Shown: piece by piece, positions 10,048 to 62,285 of the stretch
How the letters are laid out: each line of letters begins with the position of its first letter
How positions within the stretch are numbered: position 1 is the first letter of the stretch
Origin: Eledone cirrhosa
Lineage: Eukaryota
DNA length: 64,000 nucleotides
Direction of reading: 5' to 3'
Assembly: GCA_964016885.1 (NCBI GenBank)
Contig: OZ024740.1
Location: 101,432,001-101,496,000, forward strand
The notes under the pieces: model-generated
Told to the model about the DNA's origin: nothing
Seen by the model: the letters and a program-made list of their open reading frames with translations, nothing else
Database searches by the model: none
Translations under genes and position numbers: made by a program

Positions 10048-13000
10048 TCAACAGCAAAGTCTCTCTGGGGGTTTACGAGTTCTCTTGGACCGTCTTCGAT
10101 TGTCTGGTCCATACTCTGGAACAGGCAATAAGGCCTTGGGTCTGGTCTGTCTTGGAGTTAGTGGCACCATTTCCGAGATCTCCATCGGGTGATCTGTTGC
10201 AAATTCAAAAACAGTGTCTACTGCATCACCAGGTTCATTGTCTTCCTCAGTAGTGTACCGCGGTTGCAGCTGTTCCCAGTGCCGTCTCCACACCGGGCCA
10301 TGAGGTATGACCTTAACGTTGAAGCAGCGAGTACCCAATGACTTCTTAATGATTGCTGGTACCCATCGGGGATCTTTGTCTCGGCGAGGTTCGTAGTACA
10401 GTGCATACACAGGATCTCCAGCCTTGTACTGCCTGGTAACCTTAGCAACACCTGCTGAGTCCGGAGTCATCTGAGGCTTATATGCTTCCTTAGACTGCTT
10501 GCCTTGAGCGATGTGTGCTGGCGAGGGCAGCAGAGAATCAATCCTTGTCCGTATCTGCCGGTGATTCAAAAGTTCACTCGGAGAGAATCCACTGGATGTC
10601 GGTGTTCTCCGGTACTGCATCAAGAACTCTTGAAGTGCTCGCTTCGGCGGAAGAGAAGTCTTCCTCAGAGCTTGTTTGAAGGTCTGCACCAAACGTTCCG
10701 CTGCTTCGTTAGTAGCTGAGTGGTAAGGTGCCCCTGTCAGGTGCGTGATCCCACGTTCTTTGCACCAGCTCTGGAACTCCTCAGAAATAAAAGTTGGTGC
10801 GTTATCGGTGACTAGCGTGTGAGGAAATCCGAAGTGCGCAAAGTCTTCCTCAAGCAGATCTAAAGTGGCTCTGGAGGACGTGGATGACGTAGGATGAATG
10901 CATGGATACTTGGAATAAGCATCCGTGATCACCAACCAATTACTGCCCATGAAATTTATTGCGTGGTCCAGGTGTAAGCGGCTCCACGGCTTTTCAGGTA
11001 ACATCCATGGGTGAACTAGAGACTTGGGTGGCTGGTTTTGATGTTCACCACACGAATCACATTGTCGACTGGTTTTCTCTATAGCAGCATCGATACCAGG
11101 CCAATAAACAGCAGTTCTTGCCAATTGTTTCATGCGCTCCATGCCAAAGTGTCCGAGATGCAGAAGATTGAGGATCTTTGGCTGTAAGCTATGTGGAATC
11201 ACAACTCTCGATCCATGGATAAGGCATCCGTGACAGATACTGAGTGAATCCGATAACTTCCGGAACTTATTGACTTCGTCATTGATCTCAGTATTCTTTG
11301 GTGGCCAGCCTTCACGGACGTAGCGTATCACTGTAGATATCACTGGATCTTTCCCTGACTCTTGACGGAGGACGTTAGAATCGATAGGTTGGAGTTGAAG
11401 ACTGAGAGCTTTGATGGCGCACACCATGTCCATGTCTTCACCATTTTCCTTCCTGTCAAAGTCGATGTCATTACCAAATGGCAAGCGACTGAGGGCATCT
11501 GCATTGCCATGATCCGCTGTTTTCCGATATTCGATGGTGTAGTCAAACTGGTTCAGCCACAGGGCCCACCGTGCTAGTCGGTTAGCAGCGAGAAGTGGCG
11601 TCCCTTTCCTCGGACTGAACAGTGATGTCAGTGTCTTGTGGTCAGTTACGAGTATAAACTGATGTCCGTACAGATACTGATAGAACTTCTGCAAGCCAAA
11701 TATGATGGCCAGGGCTTCCTTTTGAATTTGGCCGTAGTTACGCTGTGCAGAAGTAAGAGTCTTGGACACATTGGATATTGGGCGCTCGCTTCCATCAGGA
11801 TAGCGATGAAACAGGACTGCTCCAATACCAACGTTTGACGCGTCGCAAGCCAGTCCCAAAGTTTTGTTTGGATCGAAGTGTATCAGAACTCGATCCGATG
11901 AAAGCACATTTTTCAACTGATCGAAAGCTGACTGTTCTTCATCTCCCCACTTCCAAGTAGTCGTTTTTTTCGTAAGGCAATAGAGTGGCTCTGCCATGCT
12001 GGCCAGGTTTGGGATAAACTTTCCATAGAACTAAACTCAACCTAGGAAAGACTTCAAGCTTGAGACGTTCGTTGGATGTGGCATCTTTAAAACTGCTTCG
12101 ACCTTGGATCCCTTCAGCCGACAAGGTGTGTCCAAGGTATTCCACACTGGGTAGTGTAAACTGGCACTTGTCACGGCGACATCTGAGTCCTTTGTCGCAC
12201 AGACGTGTGAACAGACACTTTAGGTTGTTCAGGTGATCGTTTGCATCTTTCCCACTGACGAGCATGTCGTCCTGGAAGACGGCCACACCAGGTAGATCTT
12301 GAGTCAGGTTTTCCATGATCTCCTGAAAGTAACCAGGTGCTGACTTGATTCCGAAAGGGAGTCGTTCCTGCAGGAGCACCCCACGGTGAGTGCTGAGTGC
12401 AAGCCTGCGTTGACTTTCTGGAGCCAGCTTGATCTGATTATAGGCATCAGCAAGATCAATCTTTGTGTATCCGAATCCACCTCCGAGCTTCTGCATCAGT
12501 TCCTCTGGGAGTGGCATTGGATGACGATGATCTGCAAGTTCGTCATTAATTCCCACAGAGTAGTCACCACAAATCCGTAGTTTGGGCTTCAGGTTGCCTG
12601 AAGTATGTGCTTTACGAATCGGTACCTCTGGCATTCCGTATTCGTTGAACTGTACTGGCTTCCAGATTCCTTTGGCGATGCCTTCTTCGTAACCTTTGGC
12701 CAAGTCATCACGAAGAGCAAACGGGACCGGGCGTGCCTTGTGAAAGACCGGTGTCGCGTCCGACTTGAACTTCACTTCCAGTTCGAAGTCATTAAGACAT
12801 CCCAATTCTTGCTTGAAGAGATCTGGGAATTCATCACACATGTGACAATCTCGTTGCATGGAAATATAGGGCTCATTTGAGGTCTTTGGATGCATCACTT
12901 CTGCACCCTCACTCTTGGCCTGGCTGTCTATGCTTTTCAATCCTAGAGCATTGTCCACGGAAATTCCCAGAGTCTGGATAGCGTTTCGTCCCAGCAAATT

Positions 13001-13156
13001 AAGATCAGGGATCTTGGTGACGATGTAGGGTATTGAATTCCGTTTACCGGTCGTTGGATCCTTGGTTTGGCCCATGAAAGTTCCCAGAACGGGCAGGTCG
13101 TGCTTGCTGGCAGATGTTTGACATCTTGCAGCTTCGGTTTTCCTAATTGTTTCCAA
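10048..13156 (-). pseudogene. pol: Gypsy pol (RT, RNase H, integrase), frameshifted near 12040
   Basis: KIDLADAY, LPFG, FQDD (RT); CDAS..GIGAVL (RNase H); H..H...CDSC and LVTDN..F (integrase). Confidence 0.92.
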
Positions 13157-14281
13157 ACTGACAAGGAAACAAAATTGCCTGTAGTAGCTGTGTCCAATTC
13201 CATTGTGAAAAGTCTGTTCTGGATTGTTATTGGCACATTCAAACTATGAGTATCGTGGGGAACTTCACCAAGGATCGCCTTGACTAGCTCAGCTTTCGTG
13301 ATTCTTTTCACGTAATTCTGTGAGCGATTATTACGTTGCTGATGTTTCTTTCTACACACCGCTTGCAAATGTCCCTTTTTGTCACAAAAATGACATTTGG
13401 CTTCTTTGAAGGGGCAGTCTGTCGCTTTGTGGGCCTTTCTACATCGGTAGCACATCTCCTGGTCTGTGGAATAAGACTGCTGATAGTTCTTTCGAGGACC
13501 CTTGTTCTTGTTCTGCTGGACCTTGTAGACTTGCTTGGTTTTGGAACCGTAAACAGTTTCCTTGGCAACCTTTGCTGCGTCTTCGGTCCCGATGGCAACT
13601 TGGACAGCACGGGCGAAATCTAGTTCTGTATCCTTGATCTTGAAAATAGCCTTCAACACAGCTTCATTATTGACAGAACATAAATCTCTGTCTTAGAGCT
13701 TCATCTTGTGGATTTGTGATCGAAGGAAAATCACAGGTAGCTGCATCCTGACATATACGTGCTGCCAGCTCCTGGAGAGTTTCGCCTGGCTTCCGTTGCA
13801 TGTCACTCCAGAACTTGAAACGTTCTCTCACAATGAAAAGTTTTGGCTCGAACTGTTCTTTCATGAAGTCAACAATTTCGTCCATTGTCAACTTGTTGAT
13901 ATTCTTAGGCGGATTTTGTTGAGCAGCCAGATTTGCAAGTTGTTTGTAGATAGCAGCCGTCTGATTAGTCAGGAACACTTGTGCCATGCGTTGCTCGGGT
14001 ACAGCGTTAGCAGCCACAAACGTGCAGAATCTTGACCAGTAATCAGGCCATAGTTCTGTTGTTGAATCAAAAGCAGCAAATGGTGGGATGAATGCTGTTG
14101 GTGTCGAAGCAACTGGCGACGCCAATAAACTCTGTTGTTCAGAATCTCGAGCACCAAACAGTTTTATCAGAGTCTCCATATCTTTCTTGTGTTGTTGCAT
14201 TTGTTGTTCCTGTTGTTGCATTTGTTGTTCCATCTGTTCTCTAAACAACTTTATTAGCTCCGCTGTTTGTTGTTCCGCCAT
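13100..14281 (-). pseudogene. gag: Gypsy gag plus protease, frameshifted near 13660 and 13110
   Basis: ATG at 14281 (MAEQQ); two zinc knuckles CYRCRKAHKATDC and CHFCDKKGHLQAVC; protease motif ELDTA. Confidence 0.88.
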
Positions 14282-14344
14282 GTTTTTGTGATAAACAATT
14301 TCCCGGCAATGTAGGTAAATCCTATCGGCGACGCCAATAAACTC

Positions 14345-14560
14345 TGTTGTATTCCTCTCGGTACTCGCAGAGAAAACACAACGAGTTATATCAAATAATT
14401 TGTGTAATTTATATGAAACAAGCAAAACGCCCCTCCTCACAGTAGCAGTCTGTGACCGAGTTTTTAATACCAACGCTGACTGACTGCCCAGGTCACGTGA
14501 TTCATATGCAAATGTGTGAGCACGTGTAAATTGAATAGAAATTTAACAGTCCATACAACA
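14345..14560 (-). repeat. 5' LTR (216 bp)
   Basis: Near-identical to 9773-10013 except a 26-bp indel and small changes; followed by gagtttatTGGCGTCGCC (PBS-like). Confidence 0.9.
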
Positions 14561-19555: not shown

Positions 19556-19770
19556 AGGAAAATGTTTAACCCCGACGGCAGAGCTCAAGCCGTTTCAACG
19601 GCTATTTCTGGACTTCATGTTGTAGTCCAGAAATAGCCGTCGAAACGGCTTGAGCTCTGCCGTCGGGGTTAAACATTTTCCTATTACCCACTCTACTACC
19701 CTAAGTATTGAGTACTCTGGTGCGTTATGGTCCATCTGGTTCCTTACCACACTTCCTTCGTTATATATAT
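19556..19770 (+). mobile_element. Fold-back, ORF-less PLE-like cassette (family of 23325-23410 and 56211-56470) containing the 3' half of a hammerhead
   Basis: 59-bp inverted repeat 19556-19682; GAAA-CGGC..GCCG-TC-GGGGT at 19642-19669; (TA)/(GA) flanks. Confidence 0.7.
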
Positions 19771-21589
19771 AAATATATATAGAGAGAGAGATAAAATTAT
19801 ATATAATTTTAAATGTAAATATCTCAGGCACTACCACCATATACGGGGAATTAATGTTGACAAATTTTGAGGAATAAATCTTGTTACTCAACATTAAGCC
19901 TGCTCAGTCTCGTCCTAGACTTTGTAGTTTCTGCGATATTTATAACTCAAATGATATCTAAATTTTTGAAACATCCTGTATATTTATGTATGTGGATGTA
20001 GTTCATTAAAAGTAGAGAGGTTTTGTGCTTCCGACACATCTATGAGTTGTCTCAGTCCATTTTGGGGATACCTTTCTCACCATTTTACATGGTGTATTGA
20101 GTACATTTATTGTGACATTGTCACTAGAGATTGTCATCATTGACTCGACTGAAGAGCCCACTCTACTCTATGGACAGGGGTGGTGAGTTGCTAACTGCAG
20201 AGAGATTTGAGAAAGCTAAGGGTGGTGGATGGGAAGGGTGGTGAATGGGCTTGGAGATCTCCAGCAGTGTGGGAAGTATTGTGGAGAAACAGCTAATATG
20301 GGTCTATAACTGGTGTGTGAGGGTTTGTAAGGTATCTAAAGTATAGTGGGAGGATACTTGGATGGTGATCCTAGGAAGAATGTAGGTGTTAGTATTTAAG
20401 AATGTTAAAGTTGACCTTGGTTAGAGTAGGAGTAGGTGTGTACAGTGATGCTAACGATAATTAGTATGGTGGCGACAGTAATGGTGCTTTGTGGATGATG
20501 GGAAACAATATGCAGCTGTGTGAGGTCAAGCTGGTGGACAGGTTTTCTCCAGCAAAGCATCTCACCTGTTCTTGTGTTCCTTTGTCATCTATGTTGTGAG
20601 ATTCAGCATTTTAAGATCAGCTCAAACTACCTCATTCTATGTCTTCCTGGATGTGCCTCTTCCATGAGTTCCCTCCACAGAGATTTCTCTGCACTTTATA
20701 CAGATATGTTATTTATATATATATATATAAACATACATACATATACATACATTTATATGCATATATATATACAAACATTTATATATACATACATAAGCGG
20801 GTTAAAGAAGTGTGTTTGTTTGTCTGTATTGTTCATTTGTTAGATGGTAGTTTGAGTTGTGGAATGATGCTGTTGAATAAGTGAATTGCTTGTTATTTGA
20901 GTAATTGCAAGTAAGTGAATTCTCTTGGTGAATCAAGAGAAATTTTGCCATGCTCAAGAAAAACAAGTAGTTGTACTCACTTGTTGTGGTGTGAAGTGAC
21001 ATTACCATTGGGAAGATGATTTTCCCAAATCACAAGGATAAGAATTAACAAATGAAAAAGACACTGCTAATTTAAATTGCTTTTATTTTATAATTTGATT
21101 TAAATCAAAATCATAGATAGCAAGTATAGATGCAGTATGTGTGCAATTTAAGATACATTGTGGTAAATTTTACTAGCCTGATAGCAATCTTAGCTAGTTC
21201 TGATTCCAGCAGGGCTGACTAGCAAGAGTGTGTGTCTGTATGTGTCTGTATCTACGTTGCTATACTAGCCAAACAAAATATCTGTTGCGGAGTCGGGAGG
21301 CAGACAGTATTTTGCCAAGTCAAAAAGCAAAATGTGCCCAGGGGGTTGAAATATCTTGTGTATGTCAGATTTAGGTCATCCAGAGGCATTAAACAGATGG
21401 TCTTTTTTACTGTCCTCTCTTCAGACATTTTGGTGCTATGAGCCTTCTACAAGAGAGTATTATCTAAATGTTGGGCCATGTGGTCACACGTCAGTCATTT
21501 GGTTGTGTCTGGCAGGTTAAGAAAACCATTGTAGGAAAAATATGTTGAGATTTCTCTCTCTACACACACAGATATATATATATATACTA

Positions 21590-23278: not shown

Positions 23279-23322
<44 letters not shown>

Positions 23323-23324
23323 TA

Positions 23325-23410
23325 TAACGAAAGAAATGTGGTAAGGAACCAGGTGGACCATAACGCACCAAAGTACTCAATACTTAGGGTAGTAGAGTGG
23401 GTAATAGGAA
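23325..23410 (-). repeat. 3' terminal fragment of the 19556/56281 cassette family
   Basis: gtggtaaggaaccaggtgg..cataacgcacca..agtactcaatacttagggtagtagagtggg next to (TA)n. Confidence 0.8.
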
Positions 23411-28592: not shown

Positions 28593-29954
28593 TCTTTATA
28601 TATATAAAAGTGACGATGTGTGTGTGTCTGTGTACAACTTTGGATACCTAAGGCCTTTACAATTACCAACCGAATTTGACCAAATTTTGTGTGCACGTTG
28701 CACAGGTCGCTAAGATGGTCACATCACAAAGATTTTTCCAATCGACCCACGTTGAGCAATAAAAAATCGATATCAAAATTATCGGTAGCAAAATTGATGT
28801 AAGGGAGATAACCAATTTTATTGACAATCCTTATAAAAAAAAGGGAGATAACCAACTTTATTGACAATCCTTATAAAGAGAGTGAGATATGGAGACCTTT
28901 GTTTTCAATTTTAAAACAACAATCATCGTCGGACGAAATTTCAGAAATATAAACATCAGATTCATTTGAAGATAAATCACTAATATTATCGTTTGTTTCT
29001 TGTTTATTCTTTGTTGCACTTTCAAAGTTTAAAAAAAACACTTGTTGTTTTAACTTGTTTCACTATATTAAGTTCACTATATTAAGTTTACCTCCTAATA
29101 TCACTACTCCATAACTATGCAATGGTACACGCCTTGTGGTTAAAAAAACTGTCTCCACTTAGTATTGACGCTACCATTCTATCCGGATGTGGTAAAGGCG
29201 AGGATGTGATAATAACAAAAATTAGCCGGACTACATCAGGCGTGGATACTACCTTCTCCTTTCGCCAAAACCAATTTCCCCTTCGTGTTGCCTTTGCGAT
29301 GTCCATAAACATGTCGCAAGGTCAAACTCTGTCCGTCACTGGAATTCACTTGGATGAACCTTGCTTTTCGCACGGACAATTCTACGTTGCCTGCTCACGA
29401 GTTGGCAGTCGAGATAATCTCTGCGTTTGTTCCGAAAAGAAAAACAAAGAATATCGTCTATCCTAAAGTGCTTTAGTGTTAAAAAAACAACTTATTACAG
29501 CTCTGTCTTGACTTCACCTTACTCACCATACCAATGAATATGTCATGCAGGATATTTTGGATTATAAGTTCAAAATTTAACCATACACAGGATAGGATGC
29601 TCTCAAAGAATAGATTTTCTCTTATTCTACTCTTATTGTTTTTTTTTTTGTTTGTATACAACACTGCTTTCATTACAACCTTTTGTACTTTAGCAAAACT
29701 GCCTGTTTTTTTACAGATTTGCAACGTGTATTGTCTTTAATCATTTGTATAAATACATCCTGTTCAGTGTTTTTCATTATAATCAACATAGTTGTATGTG
29801 TACAAAGATTGCACTAAATATTCGTTTGCATTAATTATTGAAGACTTCTGCTTATTTTGACATGTTGGGGACAAATAATGTTCTTCTTTTACTTCCTAGA
29901 TGTATACACTAAGCATAATTTCAAATCCAGAGCAACGCCGGGTAAATCTGCTAG
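28593..29954 (+). mobile_element. Internally deleted Helitron with a Pif1 helicase C-terminal remnant (29122-29466)
   Basis: A|TC start; QFPLRVAFAMSINMSQGQTL, HGQFYVACSRV; GC-rich subterminal hairpin then CTAG|T at 29951-29955. Confidence 0.85.
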
Positions 29955-33496: not shown

Positions 33497-33543
<47 letters not shown>

Positions 33544-33646
33544 TAATACATTTGAATACTAAAATCCAAAGAGGTCTCGATGAAGATAAATATATATTAA
33601 ATATATAAGAACCGTAGAGCAAATATTTATTAAAATAACAGATTAA

Positions 33647-33697
33647 AGTTTAAACAAAGAATCGCTGCTTTCACCCTTAACGGGTTCTTCTGAAACT
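33647..33697 (-). ncRNA. Hammerhead-like fold in the inverted pLTR (CAGAAGA core variant)
   Basis: AGTTT-CAGAAGA-ACCC-gttaa-GGGT-GAA-AGCA..TGTT-T-AAACT. Confidence 0.6.
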
Positions 33698-34007
33698 AAC
33701 AAAGTCAATCTGTGATGTATTTATTTAATTTCATTTACCTCTGTATTTTATTTACTTTATTCTTAACTCTGAAGCCGAGAATCATTCGGTTTCCTAGTTA
33801 GAATTTTAGTCTACGACTTCTTTTATACCTTAAACGTGGTTTTGTCTTTGCGTGTAATTGTTTTTCACCGCTCCAAATAATGACGTATTCGTTTCTCCAA
33901 TCTTTGCCAGGGAACGTTTCCACGAACCAAAGTATCGTCTTCCTGTCTTCCTCCGGTTGCGACGTTTTTTGAATTATTCTCTTCTGCGTTCACAGATTGA
34001 CTCTGTT

Positions 34008-34058
34008 AGTTTCAGAAGATCCCGTTAAGGGTGAAAGCAGCGATTCTTTACTTAAACT
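34008..34058 (+). ncRNA. Hammerhead-like fold in the 5' pLTR
   Basis: AGTTT-CAGAAGA-TCCC-gttaa-GGGT-GAA-AGCA..TACT-T-AAACT. Confidence 0.55.
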
Positions 34059-34211
34059 TTAATCTGTTATTTTAATAAATATTTGCTCTACAGTTCTTAT
34101 ATATATGATATATATTATCCTTATCGAGCCCTCTTTGGATTTTAGTCTTCAAATTTATTATTATTACTATTTGGCTCCCTCGGTTGAGCACTCTATTGAG
34201 ATATATTCATC

Positions 34212-36332
34212 ATGCAGAAACAACATCTGAATATTTCTACAAAGAACATACCCGTACCAAGCAGGAAATCATACCTAAAACTCCTGATACAGAAAACAGA
34301 CGCGTTCATTAAAAGGTTGCGTTGGCGTGCCTTTTATTTCGATAATCAGGGAAAAGCAGACAACAAACAGGATAAATTTGGGTTTAAAACCTATAATAAC
34401 CCTCCGAGTAACACAGCATAGCTACCCTTCGAAAATGATGTCTTGGAACTCATACGGTGTATCAATTTTCGGAATAGGAGCAATTCCTTCCAGCAGGACC
34501 TGAAGAATAGAATTCGTTCTATTAAGGATTCTAATGCCGTGCACGTCCATTCCGACAAAACTGGCAATCTATATCAAGTGGAGCCTAGTACTTACCATCA
34601 ACTGCTACATAATGCTGTAACTAAAGACTACCGTAAAACTAATCGGTGCGTCATTAATGAAATCAACGATGCTGTGTTTAAAATCACCTCTGATCTCAAC
34701 ATGTTGGACCGGGCTGAACCTCTGGACCCTATTTCACCCCACTTTACCCTGAAGGATCACAAATCCAATTTTCCAAACAACCCCTCTATTCGGCTTATTA
34801 ACCCTACGAAATCCGATTTAAGTAGACTTAGTAAAGGATTCTTGATAGTATCATACCTGAAATTAGAAGTTTGGCCCCTCTTGCACTGTGGAACAATTCT
34901 TTCGCGGTGATTGATTGGTTCAACGGCATATGCAACAAGGAACACTAATTCGACATCAATAATTACTACTCCTCCATCACTTTACCACTTCTCCTTAGAG
35001 CTATCAATTTCGCTTAAACACTCACAGTGGTTAAGGATTTCGAAGTTTATGTCATCCTCAATGCCCGTAAGTCGGTGATTAATTTCGACGACTCTATTTG
35101 GATTAAAAAAATCTAATAGTACCCCAACCTCATTCGACGTGAGTATGGGCGCCAACGATTCTGCGGAGGTTACTGATCGTATCGGCCTTTTCCTTCTTTT
35201 CTCTATCAAGGAAGAATTCCCCAACGTGGGCGGTGGTTTGTACCGTGATGATGGTCTTTTGACCATGACTAAGTGCGGCCCACGTGCTTGCGACAGGTTC
35301 AGAAAAGAACTCACAGCCTTCTTTAAAGGCTTCAACCTCTCCATACAGGTTGAGGCCAACCTCTCGGTCGTTAATTACCTCGACGTTACACTCAATTTAT
35401 CGAATGGATTGCATTACCCGTATAGAAAGCCGAATGATACGCTTAATTACATAACTAACATTCTAACCATCCTGCGAGCATAACCAAGAACATAGTAAGA
35501 AACGTTTCTTTGAGGCTTTCCAGTCTATCTATTAACGAGCATATTTTCAACGACCATTCCACATATTACAATGAAGCTCTTGATCGGAGTGGATTTGTCG
35601 ATATGGTAGCATATACAGAGTACGAGAATAGACCTAGAAGAAATAGATGCCGACGCATTATATGGTATTACCCACTATATAATATGGAAGTGGCCACACA
35701 ATTAGCTAAGATCTTTCTCTCCCTTATTATGAAGCATTTTCCCCCTACACATAAATATAGTGAAATTTTCATAGAAATTCTATTAAAATTTCTTACTCTA
35801 CGACTCCTAACCTTGCACATGACATCACAGCTTCAAATTTAGCTAAACTACCTAGCCGTATGAACACGTGCAACCCTGTAGTTAGTACTAACTGTAATTG
35901 TAGGAATCGGATTGACTGCCCCTATCCGGGAAATGCCTCTCTAGTAACATTGTCTACAAATGTAAGGTTGAAACACCCACGTCTCGTAGGGCCTACATAG
36001 GGTTAACCGCCAATAGATTCAAGCAGCGTCTTTACATGCATACCCATTCTTTACGTTACCATTAAAGAAGGAATAGGACGTCACTTTCAGCTTATATCTG
36101 GAGTCTAAAAGACAACCACACCCAATATAAGTTACACTGGGAGATCCTAGCTAGGGCTAGATCGTATAACGGAAATAAAAGACCATGTGACATCTGCGCC
36201 GCTGAGGCCTTGGAAATACTCTACGTCAAAAACCACATCTTAAACAAAAAATCTGAGGCAATTTCGGCTTGTAAACATAAATTGCACAAAACTTTCCTGT
36301 ATTACAGCCCCACATTATACCCTAACGGATAG
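34212..36332 (+). pseudogene. PLE RT-GIY-YIG polyprotein, disrupted
   Basis: KNIPVP..IKRLRWRA, SDKTGN, RLINP, MGANDSAE, YRDDGL, CNCRNRIDCP, IVY..AYIG..FKQR, CDIC..E, LNKKSE..CKH; TAG at 36330-36332. Confidence 0.88.
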
Positions 36333-36718
36333 AATGAACTATACGCGGATATTTTAAGTCCTGATGTGGTAGCTAAGTATATGTTATGTTTATACCATTA
36401 CTTATTTGTATAGGTAAGTATATATTACCTGTATGTTTTGTGAAGGTACGTATACTTTCTCGTACGTATATTTGATTGTATATGTTATGGCGTATATATT
36501 ATATATTCTGGTACATATGCTTTTGGTTATGTGTATACGTGAGTTTTGCGTCTGTGTGAGTATGCGGGTTCGTACGTATGTAGGGTGTGTTTATATGTGT
36601 ACTTCGTGTTTTGTTTGACGTACGGCTCCGAACATAAGTGTATTTACATGTAGGTAAGTGTGTGCGCTTGTTATATACGTATTTATTTATTTATATACGT
36701 TTATTTAATTATATGTAT

Positions 36719-36752
<34 letters not shown>

Positions 36753-37359
36753 GTTTATGTGTATTTGGTGTATACATTCGTATGCGTGCGGGTACAGGCG
36801 TTGCGTGGGTTCTGTATGTGCGTGCGAATTTTTTTTTTTTTTGTGTACGTGCGTGTATTTGTATACCTATGGCGAGTGTTTTCGCGTATGCTTGTGTATG
36901 TACGTATATGGATGCGTGTATGTATTTTATTAATTTCATTTACCTCTGTATTTTATTTACTTTATTCTTAACTCTGAAGCCGAGAATCATTCGGTTTCCT
37001 AGTTAGAATTTTAGTCTACGACATCGGTTATACCATTTACGTGGTTTTGTCTTTGCGTGCAATTGTTCTCCACGCTCGACATATGACATATTATCTTCAT
37101 TTTCTCCGTTCATTGCCAGAGAACGTCTCTATGAACCACCTAATAGAATATGAGTCTACGACTTCTTTTATACTATAAATGTGGTTTTGTCTTTGTGTGT
37201 AATTGTTTTTCACCGCTCCAAATAATGACGTATTATATTCGTTTTTTCCCGTTATTTGCCAGGGAACGTTTCCACGAACCAAAGTATCGTCTTCCTGTCT
37301 TCCTCCGGTTGCAACGTTTTTTGAAATATTCACTTCTGCGTTCACAGATTGAATTTGTT

Positions 37360-37410
37360 AGTTTCAGAAGATCTCGTTAAGGGTGAAAGCAGCGATTCTT
37401 TGCTTAAACT
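37360..37410 (+). ncRNA. Hammerhead-like fold in the 3' pLTR
   Basis: AGTTT-CAGAAGA-TCTC-gttaa-GGGT-GAA-AGCA..TGCT-T-AAACT. Confidence 0.55.
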
Positions 37411-37484
37411 TTAATCTGTTATTTTAATAAATATATATATATATATATATATTAACAAATGGAAACTATATTTCTAAAACCATA

Positions 37485-39900: not shown

Positions 39901-40005
39901 TATATATATATGTATATATAAATGTATATATATATAAATATAATATATATGTGTATATATATATAATGTATATATATATAAATATAATGTATATATATAT
40001 ATATG

Positions 40006-40321
40006 TATTAGTAAAAAGGAAAAGAAAATGCTGACAAATTTTCCCCAGTGAAAAATAGTTTAATTAGGAACAAGTATAAATTAGTAATAAGTATTGGTTA
40101 GTATTCAGTTTTAGTTTTAAGTTTTTACCGGTTGCTCATTTCCCAGATGAGAGCAAAAATCACGAGCGCTCTATCTCAAAATTATTTTTGAAAAGCATTA
40201 GAAATGCGCAAGCGGTAAACACTTAAAACTAAAACTGAATACTAACCAATACTTATTACTAATTTAAACTATTTTTCACTGGGAAAAATTTGTCAGCATT
40301 TTCTTTTCCTTTTTACTAATA
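40006..40321. repeat. Fold-back cassette with a degenerate hammerhead-like motif
   Basis: Inverted arms of more than 100 bp; TTGAAAA-GCAT-tagaa-ATGC-GCAA-GCGG-TA at 40188-40217. Confidence 0.65.
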
Positions 40322-40382
40322 TATCAAATCTCGTGTGTCACACCTCTATTTTTTTAAATATACATATATATATATATATATA

Positions 40383-40686
40383 TCATCATCATTTCATCAT
40401 TTCATTTTACGTCCGCTTTTCCCTGCTTGCAAGGGTGGGACGGGAACTGATGCTGGCTTGATTTCTACAGCTGGATGCCCTTCCTAACACTAACCTCATT
40501 TACAGTGAGTGCTGGGTGCTTTTTCGCCGTGGCACCTCCACGACCACTTTACAGTGGAATGATATGGACCCCAGTCCCTATCATCTCATTTCTACAGCTG
40601 AGTAAACTGGAGCAATGTGAAATAAAGTGTCTTGCTCAAGGAAACAACACATCACCCGGTCTTGAACTCACAACCTTTCGATTGCA
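40383..40686 (-). mobile_element. tRNA-derived SINE family A (RTE-type tail), head-truncated
   Basis: Reverse complement of 40770-41072. Confidence 0.85.
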
Positions 40687-40731
40687 TATATATATAATGT
40701 ATATATATATATATATATAATATGTATATAT

Positions 40732-41072
40732 GGAGGCACATGGCTTAGTGGTTAAAGCATTGGCCTTGCAATCGAAAGGTTGTGAGTTCAATTCTCAGAC
40801 CGGGTGATGTGTTGTTTCCTTGAGCAAGACACTTTATTTCACATTGCTCCAGTTTACTCAGCTGTAGAAATGAGATGATAGGGACAAAGGTCCATATCAT
40901 TCCACTGCAAAGTGGTCGTGGAGGTGCCATGGCAAAAAAGCACCCAGCACTCACTGTAAATGAGGTTGGTGTTAGGAAGTGAATCCAGCTGTAGAAATCA
41001 AGCCAGAATCAGTTCCCGTCCCACCCTTCCAAGCAGGGAAAAAGCGGACGTAAAATGAAATGATGAAATGAT
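40732..41072 (+). mobile_element. tRNA-derived SINE family A, full length
   Basis: A box TGGCTTAGTGG, B box GTTCAATTC; tail shared with the RTE 3' UTR; (ATGAA/ATG)n end. Confidence 0.88.
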
Positions 41073-41080
41073 ACATATAT

Positions 41081-41121
<41 letters not shown>

Positions 41122-41153: not shown

Positions 41154-41361
41154 ATTATTAGAAATGTTAGCTATCGCCGTAATTTGACTAAAGAAATTAT
41201 TTAGCCTGATAGTGGGGTTAAGAACCCTCGGAGAAATGGAAAAAGACGAGTATTGACGTACATGTACGTCAATACTCATCTTTCTCCATTTCTCTATCAG
41301 GCTAAATCATTTATTTAATTTCTTTAGTCAAAATACGGCGATAGCTAACATTTCTAATAAT
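41154..41361. repeat. Fold-back palindrome cassette in (TA)n
   Basis: Inverted arms around a perfect 30-bp palindrome at 41248-41277. Confidence 0.85.
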
Positions 41362-48652: not shown

Positions 48653-48689
48653 TATATCTTTTATTTAAATACTCTATGATAACATAATT

Positions 48690-48838
48690 TATACCAAAAA
48701 ATATGACAGTTTAAATCTCACACCATGAGTAACCAGTCTAAAATATTATACCAGAAAATATGACAGTTTAAATCTCACACCATGAGTAACCAGTCTAAAA
48801 TATTATACCTGAAAATATGACAGCTTAAATCTCTCACC
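48690..48838. repeat. 57-bp tandem repeat, about 2.6 copies
   Basis: ATACC at 48691, 48748 and 48805. Confidence 0.9.
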
Positions 48839-54536: not shown

Positions 54537-54570
<34 letters not shown>

Positions 54571-54573
<3 letters not shown>

Positions 54574-55395
54574 CAAGGTTTAGCAAATAAGAAAAAGTTT
54601 CAAAATAAATTTCAAAAAATTCACTGTATTCACTATGGTTACCTTTACCGAATCGGTTTCGAGTCTCAAAAATAAATGGACAGTCCTTGCGGCCTTCCAT
54701 TGAAAAGATAAACTCTCGTCAGAAGGTGCTTTACACTCAGAGAATATAAAATTCCCGAGTTCAAATTACGAACCGGCGCTATTCAAAATTGTTCCCGAGA
54801 TGAGAATGAATGATGTGGAAGCAATTCTGTCCAGTGCCATGTGTAAAGATAGAAGCAGAGGCAGGGAGGTCAGTCTACTACCACTATAAATAGCAGCAGT
54901 CAAAACGACCAAATTTTTTCTCGACCAAGAGGAGAATAATAATAATAAAGTATATATACCTACACACAAAAAGTGTCCAGGGACATTGTCCAACCATATG
55001 CCAATGTGGTTCAATGGCAGGTTAATAAATTAACGAGCCAGAACATATATAATCAAGGTTTAGCAAATAAGAAAAAGTTTCAAAATAAATTTCAAAAAAT
55101 TCACTGTACTCACTATGGTTACCTTTATCGAATCGGTTTCGAGTCTCAAAAATAAATGGACAGTCCTTGCGGCCTTCCATTGAAAAGATAAACTCTCGTA
55201 AAGGTAACCATAGTGAGTACAGTGAATTTTTTGAAATTTATTTTGAAACTTTTTCTTATTTGCTAAACCTTGATTATATATGTTCTGGCTCATTAATTTA
55301 TTAACCTGCCATTGAACCACATTGGCATATGGTTGGACAATACATGTGTCCCTGGCCGCTTTTTGCGTGTAGGGATATATACTATATTATTATTA
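54571..55395 (-). mobile_element. Retrozyme-like non-autonomous PLE cassette: 480-bp unit, partial tandem copy and inverted arm
   Basis: Direct repeats start at 54571 and 55051; inverted arm 55198-55395; (TA)n flanks; no credible ORF. Confidence 0.8.
54641..54727 (-). ncRNA. Type I hammerhead ribozyme, canonical core, extended stem II capped by GCAA
   Basis: ACCTT-CTGACGA-GAGTTT...AGACTC-GAA-ACCG-att-CGGT-A-AAGGT; GUA site. Confidence 0.85.
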
Positions 55396-55537
55396 TATAT
55401 ATATATATAAACCATCATTTTCATCACCATTTTATGTGTTATTTCATGAATTCATAGGTTGGGACACACACACAAGAAAATTAGGTTTTTAAAAAAAAGA
55501 AAGAAAAAAATGAGATGTCCTACACAGGAGAAAGTAT

Positions 55538-55768
55538 AAGGAAAAGAAATTGAAAATGCAATTGGAGTCTTTTAAGGATATTTATTTATTTACTTTACTG
55601 GTTTCACTGTTCTTATGCTTTTCAAAAATAAAAGTGAGACGAAGGGTTTGTGTTTCTGTTGTGGTTTGTCTCACATCTGATGCGAGACAAAAGCATAAGA
55701 ACTGTGAAACCGGTAAATAAATAAATATTCTTAAAAGACTCCAATTGCATTTTCAATTTCTTTTCCTT
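55538..55768. repeat. Fold-back cassette with minimal hammerhead-like motifs
   Basis: Inverted arms of about 80 bp; minus strand TTGAAAA-GC..GT-GAAA-CCAG-TA (55596-55625); plus arm GCA..TGT-GAAA-CCGG-TA. Confidence 0.65.
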
Positions 55769-56100
55769 CATCATCATCATCACCATACGTCCGCTTTTCC
55801 CTGCTTGCAAGGGTGGGACAGGAACTGATTCTGGTTTGATTTCTACAGCTGGATGCCCTTCCTAACACCAACCTCATTTACAGTGAGTGCTGGGTGCTTT
55901 TTTGCCGTGGCACCTCCACGACCACTTTGCAGTGGAATGATAGGGACCCCAGTCCCTATCATCTCATTTCTACAGCTGAGTAAACTGTGAAATAAAGTGT
56001 CTTGCTCAAGGAAGCAACAACACATCACCTGGTGTGAGAATTGAACTCACAACCTTTCGATTGCAAACCCAATGCCCTAACCACTAAGCCATGTGCCTCC
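55768..56100 (-). mobile_element. SINE family A, full length
   Basis: Reverse complement of 40732-41072. Confidence 0.88.
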
Positions 56101-56161: not shown

Positions 56162-56210
56162 GTATATATATATATATGTATTTGTATATATATATATATA
56201 TATATATATC

Positions 56211-56332
56211 GAGTACTCTGGTGCGTTATGGCCCACCTGGTTCCTTACCACACTGCCTTCATTATATATATATATATATAATGAAGGCAGTGTGGTAAGG
56301 AACCAGGTGGGCCATAACGCACCAGAGTACTC
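56211..56332. repeat. Perfect palindrome: 52-bp arms around (TA)n
   Basis: gagtactctgg...ccttcat-(TA)n-atgaagg...ccagagtactc. Confidence 0.9.
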
Positions 56333-56374
56333 AATACTTAGGGTAGTAGAGTGGGTAATAGGAAAAGAGTCAGG

Positions 56375-56470
56375 ACCCTGACGGCTGAGCTACAGCCGTT
56401 TCGACAGCTAGATCTGAACTAACCCAGTAGTGTTGGGACAGTAGTAATCTAGCTGAACTTATCAAGGGGT
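56375..56470 (-). ncRNA. Type I hammerhead fold, U3-A8 core variant, extended stem II
   Basis: ACCCC-TTGATAA-G..CAGCTAGAT...ATCTAGCTG..C-GAA-ACGGCTG-tagct-CAGCCGT-C-AGGGT. Confidence 0.72.
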
Positions 56471-56700
56471 ATAGTCCATATATGGGTATGTAATGAAAGC
56501 ATATCAGTAGTGTCATATCAAACAATCCTAAAAATTGTTGTTTTTCTTTTCTGTCAAGGGGAGTGTTCAAAGATTTTGTATACATAGTTAAATTTCTACA
56601 TAGCGGTTGGTGGGGGTGTCTGAACATGCTTGTAGAACTAAGGGGGGGGGGGGATAAGATGACAACCTGACCTGTGGACGCCGGGCCGCTCATGCATTAA

Positions 56701-56918
56701 CCATTTACCAATTACATTACTCTATATTTACTCTTATATTTTCATGGTAAAGGCTTTATCTTACATAATTATCTCACATAATATCGAATCTATGCGATTT
56801 TGATATTTATTTTGAGAACAATACCTTAACATAAGTATAGGCAGCCATTTATGGCTGGTTTGAACAGAAAGTGGTGAGAGAATTCTGGCCAGATATGAGC
56901 AGTTTAAATGCTAAAGGA
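56701..56918 (-). mobile_element. piggyBac-like MITE (diverged copy)
   Basis: TTAA on both sides; inverted homolog of 60088-60307. Confidence 0.7.
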
Positions 56919-59900
56919 TTAAGAGAGAATTCTTTACAGCTTTCTCTAAAGGGGGATAAGAACGAATGATAAACAAGGAATGTGTAGAGTTAATATGGGT
57001 ATGCTGGGTCTAGTGTTGGCTAGATAGCAAAGCAAATATAATTAAATACAAAATTCATAATTAATATAATTTATTTATTAGTTACTCTAATACACTAGAA
57101 CAGCATCTCAAAGTAGTAATTTTATCAATATTATTATCCATAATTATGCACCCCCGAAAGAAAAAAACACTGGCTATGTGTTAGGGCGGTGCTATGTATA
57201 TATATATTACTTAACTACTGTAAATTAGCCAAAATATTGATATTATCATGGTTCATTTCACCTTTCAAATGATAAATTAAGCACTAAAACTTGCCTTTTT
57301 TTTTCTTTGTTCAACCTATATATCTGACTTTAGTTCTTTGAATACTCAATAATATGTAATAAGATAGCAATTTTTCACAAAAACAGATTTCACCTTGTTT
57401 CAATGAAATATTCATATCCACACTACATTGGGTTCTAACCGTGTTATTAGTTCTGCCTTAATAAGGTAGAATATATATATATATATATAATAACTAGAAA
57501 TTGATTAACATATAAATAAACATGAATAATCACAGGAGATAATTTTTACAAGTGTGTAAGCACACATAGCTAGGTAGGTAATTAAATAAAGTTAACCAGA
57601 ACTTCAAAAATAGATACCTTATAATATGATTATTATTTATTACCTTATAATATGATTATAATATGCTTGAAAGTGACCACTGCTGGTCACTTTCAAGCAG
57701 TGCCTATTTAAATACTTCTGTGATGGAGTTGGCTTGGAAAGTGTTTATATATATATGCCAGGATTATTTGTTAGTTTTTACATTAAGGGAAAAACCATTG
57801 GGTCTGGGTGGTTTTGAGTGAGACATATGTCTAATCTTATCTTTGAAAAAACTATCTACTTTTTCACTATGGTAATAAGGTTCTGTTCTGTTAAAAACGA
57901 GGTTGCACATTTTTGTGATAATATGCTAATAGTTTTTATTAGGTGGCAGAAATTTCTATTTATTTTAGTATATCATTGGATTTATTATAAGGTTTATATG
58001 TATTATGAAAATTTAGGGTGACATCTCAGAAATTTATCTTAAGATTAATGTTGATTGTAATTTTTAGTCTTTTATTACTAAATGATTTAATGAGATCTTT
58101 TCTAAATTCGTCATGCATATGTTCTTCAGCATGTGTGGATACTGCTAAACCATCGTCCTTGTTTAAGTCTGTAATAACATCCTTAGAATATTGAAGCAAT
58201 CATGCAGTCCTGTTGCAACTGAAAACAAGGCTAAAACTTAAAATCCTGTCCTAAATTAAATCACCAGCCATCTTGGCTCAAATGCACATTCCAGAGAAGG
58301 GGCTTACTCTTAGACCTTCAAATCCACACCAATGTGCAGCCACAATCACCTATACATAAACCCATCCCCCACACATATATACATAGGCTTGGCTTCTGCA
58401 AAGATAGAAATAGATCTCAATACATAAAGCAGGGCAATATATATTATTACTTGTGAAGCTACATAAGTGAATGAATGCCCTAGAGTTACATGCTAAAGTG
58501 CATATGTGTGTGTTATATGAAGAATGACAGGTTTTAATAGAGCCTGCAGTTAATTATCAGTGATCAAAATTTTGAAGTTCCTGAAAGAAGGCGATCATTA
58601 TTTGATAAGCAATAAAGCATTAATTTCATTTCTGAATGAAAAAAATTTTTCTTAATGCTGCAAGAAAAAAATTTGTAATTACTTTACTGTAGTATTTTTG
58701 ATTTTGATTTTCATTTGTTTAATTGTTCTTTTTTTTTCAAAATGATCAATTAATATTCCCATGTTTTGTTTTTGTTATGATTTTTTGTGAATCTGGTGAA
58801 GAAGTTGGTAGAGTAGAATTATGTGGAATAAATTAAATTCGAATGATACTCATGGAAAAATGCAATTTAGTTATTGATTTGAGAAAAGTTATAATAGTCT
58901 CTATTATATTAAGTGTTAAACATTTTTCAGAAAATTGTGGTGAGTGCTATTTGAATCAGAGAAAATTAATGAATAATTTTTGAACTGGTTGGTTGAGTAG
59001 ATTATCAGGTCTGCATAGCACTGAGTCTTTGTTTATCATGTTTTATATTTTTTATGATTATCTTTTTAAAACTAGTATAATGGCTGTAGTTATATATAAT
59101 TATAAGAAGAATATGCCTGCAGAGACATTTTTCATCATTCTATTAATCTTTGAATTTTAAATCTTTAAATCTTAACCTTGAAATTAACTCGAGATATGTT
59201 TGATATTTCTTATTTCATTTTTTCTTTTTAATTTTTTCTATTTCATTTTTTCGTTTTATCAAATAGTAATACTGTTTGTGTAAGGACTTGGAGAAAATAT
59301 CCCCTGGTCTTCAAGAAATTGAATTCTATATTGTATAACCCATTCAGTACCATAGATCTAATAAAAGAAACTGCCATATTATTTCCAATTAATTTTTAAA
59401 ATAATCAAGAATTTGAAGCGATTTAGTAATATAACTAACTTTTTCCTTATTAAGCTGATGTTTGGGATATATCTTAACAGAAATTCTTGCATAAATTTAT
59501 TGTGGTTTCTAGATAAATATAAAAGCTTTCAAATGAATAGTTTGTATTGCAAAACCAGTGGTGATTTCAGAAAATTTGGTATTACAGGGCTAAAATTCAA
59601 GTACCTCAACTACTCTACACCACATCACCTGTTGTGTTTACCTAGTAGCAATATTATATCTAAAGAGTTGCATAATATCGTAAATTAAAACTTGTCATAA
59701 CTGTGCTAAAGAGGTATAGAAGCTGAAATGGGGTACAGTGCTATTTCCATGCTACATTCAATGGTTTGGTGTTCATTTGTGTGCTCCTTTTAATTTTCTG
59801 CTAAAAAGAAAAAGGAAATGTTTAAATCTGATGATTCCTAGTTTGAACCCACTGCATGACACTTTGGGCAAGTATCTCATTTCATGGTTTTATATGCATT

Positions 59901-60087
59901 TACCATTGTTCATGAGACAATTCAATCAATATAGGTATGTGTAAGACTATATTATTCAATGTGCTCATCCTTTTTGTTATGATGATGAAATGTGATTTGA
60001 AGGAAAAGTTTGCTGGTATTTCTAGCACCTTTAGTTAAATTCTGAAGTGAAGAGGTGAGACGGATTGGGAGAAGGACTCAAAGTTAA

Positions 60088-60307
60088 CCCTTTAATGTTC
60101 AAACCGGCCAAAACCGGCCAGAATTCTCTACCTCTTTCTGTTGAAACTGGCTGTAACTGGTCGCTCAAACTGATGTTAAGGTATTGTTCTGAAAATAAAT
60201 ACTTTTAAAACCTCATAGATTCGATATTATGTGAGATAATTATGTGAGATAAAGCCTTTACCATGAAAATATAATAGTATATATAGAGTAATGTGAATGT
60301 TAAAGGG
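60088..60307 (+). mobile_element. piggyBac-like MITE
   Basis: TTAA TSD; TIRs CCCTTTAATGTTCA / TGAATGTTAAAGGG. Confidence 0.8.
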
Positions 60308-60343
60308 TTAAATACTTTGTAATAGGGTTATTTTGCCTGATGG

Positions 60344-61994: not shown

Positions 61995-62285
61995 AATTCT
62001 ACAGTTTGAAGAGAGACCATCACTACATACCCAAATGTACAATGTCTTAATGTAAACAACAAATTCCACAGAATAACTGAAGAGACCATCACTACATATA
62101 ATGTAAAATGCATTAATGTAAACAAACAATTCTACAGTTTCAATAGTGAGACCATCACTACATTTAATGTACAATGCCTTGATATAAACAACCAATTCCA
62201 CAGAATAACTGAAGAGACCATCACTGTATTTAATGTACAACACCTTGATATAAGCTACCAATGTCACAGACTCATTGAAGAGAAT
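61995..62285. repeat. 66-69-bp tandem repeat, about 4.4 units, alternating A/B
   Basis: GAGACCATCACT at 62013, 62082, 62148 and 62214. Confidence 0.85.

What the first reader, a model, noticed from the sequence alone, without database searches (positions are those of the whole stretch)
55196..55395. The inverted arm begins at the predicted ribozyme cleavage site
Seen: at ...CTCTC-GTA-AAGGTAACC the sequence switches from the antisense core to the sense strand of the unit. The switch starts at GUA|AAGGU, within 3 nt of the scissile bond, with GT microhomology. Inference: the junction records a cDNA that ended at the 5' end of a self-cleaved RNA, which would be a genomic trace of ribozyme activity in vivo.
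Basis: partly seen in the sequence, partly recalled or inferred. Interest (0 to 1): 0.72.

Follow-up and report, generated by a model that had tools for sequence, protein, structure and literature searches.

The report
Inverted hammerhead retrozyme insertion junction
A short mobile repeat carrying a hammerhead-type RNA motif sits in a TA run with a flipped partial copy that starts next to the predicted self-cutting site; this is a common layout for such elements, and the junction likely came from copying uncut RNA, so it is weak evidence that the RNA cuts itself in cells.

Summary
The sequence observation holds. At 55198-55200 the sequence switches from the antisense ribozyme core to the sense strand, 1-3 nt upstream of the predicted scissile bond of a type I hammerhead. 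The locus is 1.3 tandem 480-nt units plus a ~200-nt inverted copy, flanked by (TA)n: the usual Penelope-type layout. The family is abundant and tandem in public runs.

The cleavage reading is only weakly supported. The GT microhomology and the next A lie upstream of the bond, so a cut RNA could not template them. The direct part crosses the cut site twice with no scar. In four runs there is no depth step at the site, 0 of 4 opposite-strand joints lie near it, and recurrent breakpoints fall instead at an (ATT)n run and the TA end. One small fold-back contig does start 2 nt inside the site. Four comparators from other families in the window end elsewhere.

Best reading: two cDNAs joined head-to-head, one having stopped at the foot of stem III on uncut RNA (0.6); cleavage trace 0.22. 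The scan noted a similar case on another genome. No run showed this exact junction.

The parts
54539..54569 (.). (TA)n run at the 3' end of the direct copy; likely the insertion target; no target-site duplication can be told apart from the TA run
   Evidence: 16 family contigs of run X1 also run into (TA)n at 54571 (table 7)
54570..55049 (-). complete 480-nt monomer, 37% G+C, no long ORF
   Evidence: 155-nt direct repeat at spacing 480; tandem joint 55049->54571 in X1 (8 contigs), X9 (84 reads, 16 starts) and X7 (1 contig); base frequencies; six-frame translation
54641..54727 (-). complete type I hammerhead motif: stem I 5 bp, CUGACGA core, long stem II, GAAA, stem III 4 bp with 3-nt loop, GUA triplet; predicted cut between 54646 and 54645
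   Evidence: family variants keep stem II pairing and make loop III palindromic
54936..54948 (-). (ATT)n run in the unit; matches the outer end of the inverted arm and is a recurrent breakpoint in family copies
   Evidence: I3; joints 54936/54939 (X9), 54726/54939 (X1), 54589->54940 (X1), loose end at 54936 (X7)
55050..55199 (-). 5'-truncated second unit, broken inside the ribozyme core between G5 and A6; carries A instead of G at ribozyme position 16.2 (55128)
55198..55200 (.). head-to-head junction: 2-nt (or 1-nt) overlap, then residue H17; no untemplated base is needed if the template was uncut
55198..55396 (+). inverted, 5'-truncated copy (ribozyme sense on +); inner 143 nt 99% identical to the direct copy, outer ~55 nt differ by 5 substitutions and a 6-nt indel, mostly towards the family majority allele
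55394..55409 (.). (TA)n run at the outer end of the inverted arm

Best explanation
This is one insertion of a non-coding, tandem 480-nt hammerhead-bearing repeat, likely copied by a Penelope-type reverse transcriptase from uncut multimeric or circular RNA, with two cDNAs likely primed from the two strands of a nicked (TA)n target and joined head-to-head over a 1-2 nt overlap. Shown: the layout, both breakpoints, the (TA)n flanks, the tandem family, and two scar-free passages of the direct copy across the cut site. Inferred: one cDNA ran 1.3 units and stopped in the core at A6. The other started at the (ATT)n run, ran about 195 nt, and stopped after copying residue 17, the last base before the foot of stem III, the ribozyme's most stable hairpin. 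An enzyme moving 3' to 5' meets that hairpin one base past the scissile bond, so a structural pause puts a breakpoint next to the cut site without any cutting. A chance stop there is the weaker variant of the same model.
For: Every base at the junction is templated by uncut sequence. Stem III is the only helix with a steady pairing probability (0.35-0.59) in all three sequence contexts folded, while stems I and II fall to 0.01-0.09 in the longer contexts. No depth step across the bond: X9 646 vs 650 reads in bins 54634-49 vs 54650-65; X1 50,878 vs 56,058; X4 23.6 vs 24.5. None of the 6 listed pile-ups of ends (1 not shown) or the 19 listed loose ends (226 not shown) lies within 3 nt of the bond. 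The 4 opposite-strand joints have ends at 54595/54863, 54697/54769, 54726/54939 and 54936/54939. In the window, 0 of 4 comparators from two other families end at a cut site: offsets -40/-41, +16 and +44 to +50 in a second hammerhead family, and an RT/GIY-YIG element with the same TA-arm-direct layout whose arm starts about 20 nt before its core-like motif. Literature: an inverted 5'-truncated copy and microsatellite targets are typical of PLEs (PMC8557442 passages; PMC3846280 passages). A PLE protein nicks and extends both strands at ATT, does not need ribozyme cleavage, and no RNA reads ended at the cut site (PMC11167929, parts 1-2 of 4).
Against: A breakpoint within 3 nt of the bond is a ~2.5% event under uniform breakage, and the pause at stem III is argued, not measured; a 4-bp hairpin is a weak barrier. 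One X1 contig (depth 7, 31 letters on the short side) folds back at 54643/54644, 1-2 nt inside the cut site. X7 depth drops upstream of the site (6.5 to 2.8), though a divergent stem III variant explains that. The outer ends differ by about 115 nt, more than the 30-40 nt PLE tail. No sequence link to an autonomous partner was found. The breakpoint sample is small, RAD-seq reads are clonal, and contig depth is no copy number.
Confidence: 0.6

Rival explanations
1. One reading: the second cDNA ran off the 5' end of a hammerhead-cleaved RNA, gained one untemplated base pair, and was joined to the other cDNA. Under twin priming on one multimeric RNA, the arm's inner end would be the RNA's 5' end.
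For: The arm starts 1 nt from the bond in its most downstream reading. One independent fold-back contig starts at +2. The arm's outer part differs from the neighbouring direct copy (5 of 6 substitutions in 50 of 193 nt, p about 0.005), as expected if it came from a different unit of a multimer. The family's ribozyme looks conserved: 0 of the 40 listed variant positions fall in the 24 core and stem I positions, 2.9 expected, p about 0.05. Cut-site-defined 5' ends are reported for R2/HDV-like and Perere-3/twister elements (PMC8501958 passages).
Against: It needs the three bases before the cut to read GTA by coincidence (about 0.018). The same insertion crosses two uncut sites. No family-wide step or pile-up at the bond and 0 of 4 opposite-strand joints there; 0 of 4 comparators in the window. 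In a tested PLE, unprocessed RNA was the main template.
Confidence: 0.22
2. Fold-back self-priming: the first cDNA's 3' end looped back, skipped the mirrored stem III and copied itself, making the inverted arm.
For: The inner 143 nt of the arm are 99% identical to the adjacent direct copy. Both breakpoints lie inside the 87-nt ribozyme (3% by chance). A near-perfect fold-back centred in stem II is present in the second family at 19556-19682. Self-priming was proposed for PLE inverted junctions.
Against: The mirrored stem II does not form in the cDNA with DNA parameters (pair probability 0.00-0.03; stem III mirror 0.3 or less). The arm's outer part carries family-majority alleles at 54958, 54966, 54974 and the 6-nt insertion at 54984 that the direct copy lacks, so these would all have to be later mutations of the direct copy. 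The junction is not palindromic: 71 nt lie between the arms.
Confidence: 0.13
3. Assembly or library artefact (a chimeric fold-back read).
For: The junction was not among the joints of the 4 runs laid. PLE tandem/inverted structures are known to trouble short-read assemblies.
Against: The arm is not a mirror of the adjacent sequence: it differs by 6 substitutions and a 6-nt indel, several matching the family majority. It ends at a breakpoint that recurs in family copies, has its own TA and unique flank, and the same layout recurs in another element of the window. The runs are not shown to be the same organism.
Confidence: 0.05

Closest known systems
Metazoan non-LTR retrozymes (Cervera and de la Pena 2020, PMC7229834, passages; Li et al. 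bioRxiv 10.64898/2026.07.22.740005, part 1 of 5 and passages)
   Same: Non-coding, low-GC tandem monomers each with a type I hammerhead; proposed non-autonomous derivatives of PLE pLTRs.
   Different: Monomer 480 nt against the stated 150-450 bp. This locus has one complete and one truncated ribozyme, so it fails Li et al.'s two-complete-motif rule for an active copy. Long stem II. The word 'inverted' does not occur in the main text of PMC7229834. Circular RNA not tested.
Penelope-like element insertions with partial tandem plus inverted pLTR (PMC8557442 and PMC3846280, passages; PMC11167929, parts 1-2 of 4)
   Same: Partial tandem, head-to-head inverted 5'-truncated copy, short overlap at the joint, (TA)n target, ATT-rich breakpoint, hammerhead in the repeat.
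   Different: No RT or GIY-YIG ORF. Outer ends offset by about 115 nt rather than a 30-40 nt tail. No detectable homology to the PLE in the same window.
R2 (HDV-like ribozyme) and Perere-3 (twister variant) 5' junctions (PMC8501958, passages)
   Same: The idea that a genomic 5' junction records a ribozyme cut.
   Different: There the junction sits at the cut in many copies and the upstream ribozyme arm is replaced by target sequence. Here it is one copy, the three upstream bases match uncut sequence, and family copies show no step at the site.
LINE-1 5' inversions by twin priming (PMC10760644, passages)
   Same: Two cDNAs joined by microhomology give an inverted 5' piece.
   Different: No poly(A) priming. 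About 215 nt of the unit are missing between the arm's outer end and the start of the direct copy, and the outer end falls on a recurrent family breakpoint.

Membership tests
Type I hammerhead ribozyme | CUGANGA and GAAA core with an NUH triplet | tested here: met
   CUGACGA, GAAA and GUA in the copy at 54641-54727; sole hit, 0 in each of 10 shuffles
Type I hammerhead ribozyme | three helices, helix I open, helices II and III closed by loops | tested here: met
   constrained fold -21.4 vs free MFE -22.0 kcal/mol; the three listed family variants in stem II keep pairing, and loop III is palindromic in 211 of 626 X9 reads and in an X7 contig. The unconstrained fold is not the hammerhead and is no better than shuffles (z -0.15)
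Type I hammerhead ribozyme | reaches an Rfam hammerhead model | tested here: not met
   only 3 tRNA-like matches at gathering score in the window; the long stem II is the likely reason (inference)
Type I hammerhead ribozyme | self-cleavage activity | not testable with these tools
   needs in vitro transcription; only 1 of 9 predicted Xenopus retrozymes cleaved
Non-LTR retrozyme | head-to-tail tandem monomers carrying the ribozyme, many genomic copies | tested here: met
   tandem joint in 3 of 4 runs at 55049->54571 and a variant joint in the fourth; 1502 contigs laid in X1
Non-LTR retrozyme | monomer 150-450 bp, G+C under 50% | tested here: inconclusive
   480 nt (just above the range), 37% G+C
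Non-LTR retrozyme | no protein coding | tested here: met
   six frames hold no long ORF; a 52-aa ATG frame starting inside stem II found 0 hits at E 0.1 among 3 candidates (weak negative)
Non-LTR retrozyme | two consecutive complete ribozymes at the locus (Li et al. rule for an active copy) | tested here: not met
   the second motif is truncated at A6
Non-LTR retrozyme | expressed as circular RNA | not testable with these tools
   no RNA holder listed
PLE-type insertion | partial tandem with an adjacent inverted 5'-truncated copy | tested here: met
PLE-type insertion | AT-rich or microsatellite target | tested here: met
   (TA)n on both sides; 16 X1 contigs end in (TA)n at 54571
PLE-type insertion | 30-40 nt tail between the two outer ends | tested here: not met
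   offset about 115 nt
Autonomous PLE | RT plus GIY-YIG ORF, or homology to such an element's pLTR | tested here: not met
   no ORF; alignment to the in-window element's 5' region scores 92 against shuffles 96.6 +/- 9.8

The most novel reading that the evidence does not exclude
Hammerhead self-cleavage sets the 5' end of some templates in Penelope-type retrotransposition, and the inner ends of inverted copies record those cuts in the genome. This junction and the +2 fold-back contig would be two such records, giving the first in vivo readout of the role of the hammerhead in PLEs and animal retrozymes.
Probability: 0.2. Interest if true: 0.6.

Novelty: new member of a known kind. Interest (0 to 1): 0.24.

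Why it matters
What the hammerhead does for Penelope-like elements is stated to be unclear (PMC8557442), and in the one PLE tested in vitro cleavage was dispensable. A breakpoint peak at the cut site would answer that from genome sequence alone, and this abundant family is a good substrate for the test. A single junction whose bases are all templated by uncut RNA does not answer it. As it stands, the finding adds one more retrozyme-like family with an ordinary inverted copy, and a caution: the foot of stem III lies one base from the scissile bond, so pausing and cleavage give nearly the same footprint and must be told apart at single-base resolution.

Tried and rejected
No whole genome is held for this window, so the genome-wide breakpoint plot could not be made. 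No other copy of the family lies in the window.

A 19-nt pattern scan gave 6 metagenome and 3 prokaryote loci. All 9 match only 19-23 nt of the unit and were dropped as chance.

No RNA holder was listed; this is no evidence on expression.

The idea that the unit holds the start of a PLE ORF found no support (52-aa frame). The apparent likeness between the unit and the 5' region of the in-window RT/GIY-YIG element was no better than shuffles and was dropped. Pfam did not name three ORF pieces of that element. Its homologues numbered 576 at E 0.001; of the 3 rescanned, 1 carried GIY-YIG.

A mirrored three-way cDNA fold as guide of the junction was not supported by DNA folding. Rfam gave no ribozyme hit. 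The look-up for look-alike stretches among earlier findings was empty.

Paper searches listed no study that maps PLE or retrozyme inversion breakpoints onto hammerhead cut sites. Only listings and the passages cited were seen; supplements were not read and could hold such data (for example Fig. S2 of PMC11167929).

Full report
Setting. The window is AT-rich animal-type DNA with tRNA-derived repeats, LINE-like and LTR-retrotransposon-like remnants and many (TA)n runs. Its short repeats resemble ones I recall from octopod cephalopods; that is recall and comes from no call. No genome is held for it.

Anatomy. From left to right: (TA)n 54539-54569; a 480-nt unit on the minus strand (54570-55049); a partial second unit (55050-55199); an inverted copy (55198-55396); (TA)n 55394-55409. 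The unit holds a type I hammerhead at 54641-54727. It was the only hit of a strict scan of both strands, against 0 hits in each of 10 shuffles. It folds at -21.4 kcal/mol when the core is held unpaired, against -22.0 for the free fold; the free fold is not the hammerhead and is no better than shuffles. The predicted cut is between 54646 and 54645.

The junction. The + strand is antisense unit up to T55199 (core residue A6) and sense unit from G55198 (residue 16.2). The overlap is GT if the donor had the intact triplet, and only T if it was like the adjacent unit, which has A at 16.2. The arm therefore begins at residue 16.2, 16.1 or 17, all upstream of the bond. An overlap of 2 nt or more arises in 16.7% of random head-to-head joints. 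On the other side, an inner end within 3 nt of the bond is a 2.5% event under uniform breakage, so the position does call for an explanation (all).

Family evidence. Four of the 11 listed runs were laid on one unit at 80% likeness. The family is abundant in organism A (1502 contigs in X1, 2588 reads in X9) and present in organisms B and D (7 and 6 contigs). It is tandem (joint 55049->54571 in X1, X9 and X7) and ends in (TA)n at 54571 (16 X1 contigs). Listed stem II variants keep pairing, loop III is palindromic in 211 of 626 X9 reads and in an X7 contig, and none of the 40 listed variant positions lies in the 24 core and stem I positions (2.9 expected, p about 0.05; 296 variants not shown). 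So the ribozyme motif looks maintained.

Depth does not step at the bond in X9 (646 vs 650), X1 (50,878 vs 56,058) or X4. X7 drops, but because of a divergent stem III. None of the 6 listed pile-ups of ends (1 hidden) or the 19 listed loose ends (226 hidden) is within 3 nt of it. The 4 opposite-strand joints have their nearest ends 50 nt away. Three joints and one loose end fall at 54936-54940, the (ATT)n run where this arm's outer end also lies, so that run and the TA end are the visible hot spots. One X1 contig (depth 7) reads antisense to 54643, then 8 letters of sense starting at 54644, which is 1-2 nt inside the cut. The window's own junction (54719/54648 in unit coordinates) was not listed in any run, but no run is shown to be the same individual. 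These data are thin: unitig depth is no copy number and RAD-seq reads are clonal.

Comparators in the window. A second hammerhead family has its complete motif at about 56375-56470 on the minus strand, with a U3-A8 type core. Its other copies begin 16 nt downstream of the cut (23410), 44-50 nt downstream (56210), and 40-41 nt upstream (a fold-back at 19556-19682 whose two arms both cross the triplet intact). A decayed RT/GIY-YIG element at 33534-37434 shows the same order of TA run, ~180-nt inverted arm ending at an ATT run, and direct copy; its arm starts about 20 nt before a doubtful core-like motif. So 0 of 4 end at a cut site, and inversions are routine here.

Mechanism. PLE insertions often carry an inverted 5'-truncated copy and favour microsatellites (PMC8557442, passages; PMC3846280, passages). 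The anole PLE protein nicks and extends both target strands, prefers ATT, starts internally on the RNA, works equally with an inactive ribozyme, and no RNA reads ended at the cut (PMC11167929, parts 1-2 of 4). I infer two cDNAs, one from each target strand, joined head-to-head. The direct cDNA crossed two cut sites without a scar, so its template was uncut or circular there. The arm's cDNA stopped after residue 17, the last base before the foot of stem III, the only helix with steady pairing in all three contexts folded (0.35-0.59). This needs no untemplated base. The pause is inferred, not shown, and the hairpin is short. I put this model, with its chance-stop variant, at 0.6, the cleavage trace at 0.22, fold-back at 0.13 and artefact at 0.05. 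These weights are my judgement.

Unexplained. Five of the 6 substitutions and the 6-nt indel between arm and direct copy lie in the outer 50 of 193 nt (p about 0.005), and the arm mostly has the family-majority state. Different source units, a clustered later mutation of the direct copy, or conversion of the inner arm would each fit. The difference argues against an artefact and against simple fold-back.

Comparison and novelty. It works like a non-autonomous PLE derivative, a non-LTR retrozyme in the terms of PMC7229834 (passages), PMC4209133 (parts 1-2 of 4) and bioRxiv 10.64898/2026.07.22.740005 (part 1 of 5 and passages). Family membership is met for tandem structure, ribozyme motif and lack of coding, borderline for size, unmet for the two-complete-motif rule at this locus, and untested for cleavage and circular RNA. 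Junctions at ribozyme cut sites are already reported for R2 and Perere-3 (PMC8501958, passages); twin priming for LINE-1 is from PMC10760644 (passages). My searches listed no such mapping for hammerhead-bearing PLEs; supplements were not read.

Verdict. Real junction, known architecture, new family member. The cleavage-trace reading is not excluded but is the less likely one and cannot rest on this copy. Interest 0.24.

Noticed in passing
window 56207-56480 (- strand motif, H17 at 56380); related copies 19556-19779 and 23309-23410: Second, unrelated type I hammerhead family with a U3-A8 type core, a long stem II and a 7-bp stem III; the free fold gives the hammerhead (-42 kcal/mol). Ends in (TA)n, with a tail-to-tail 54-nt inverted piece at 56210-56263 and a fold-back copy at 19.6 kb.
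   Followed up: partly
window 33534-37434: Decayed Penelope-like element: RT pieces with a YRDD motif and a downstream YIGLT (GIY-YIG-like) motif, broken by stops and frameshifts; inverted arm 33534-33715, repeat copies at 33716-34230 and 36921-37434, (TA)n at both ends. All three repeat copies carry CAGAAGA where a hammerhead has CUGAAGA. Clade not determined.
   Followed up: partly
window 54936-54940: (ATT)n run is a recurrent breakpoint of the family in 3 of 4 runs and the outer end of this arm; the other element's arm also ends at an ATT run (34170). Candidate second reverse-transcription start or endonuclease site.
   Followed up: partly
window 55025-55180 (- strand): 52-aa open frame starting at an ATG inside stem II of the ribozyme and running through the cut site, as the ORF start does in some PLEs; no homologue found.
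   Followed up: yes
window 54948-54985 vs 55342-55396: Cluster of 5 substitutions and a 6-nt indel between the direct copy and the arm, the arm mostly holding the family-majority state; unexplained.
   Followed up: partly
window 40355-41108: Two copies of a tRNA-derived short repeat in head-to-head orientation around a TA run, forming a 750-nt imperfect palindrome (86%); a third copy at 55770-56100 has the palindromic block 55538-55768 beside it.
   Followed up: no
window 39947-40383, 41154-41361, 55538-55768: Further imperfect palindromic blocks next to (TA)n, either MITE-like or inverted-arm remnants of other elements.
   Followed up: no
window 56697-56922 and 60084-60311: A 225-nt repeat in opposite orientations 3.2 kb apart (83%), upstream of the second hammerhead.
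   Followed up: no
window 10048-14542 (- strand): Long open frames of an LTR-retrotransposon-like gag-pol region (660, 434, 249 and 291 aa pieces, broken between frames); label from recalled motifs, not scanned.
   Followed up: no
window 29086-29466: 126-aa frame resembling the C-terminal part of a PIF1-type helicase of Helitron elements (recalled motif, not scanned).
   Followed up: no
window 62012-62283 and 48689-48838: Tandem arrays with 66-nt (4.1 copies) and 57-nt (2.6 copies) periods.
   Followed up: no
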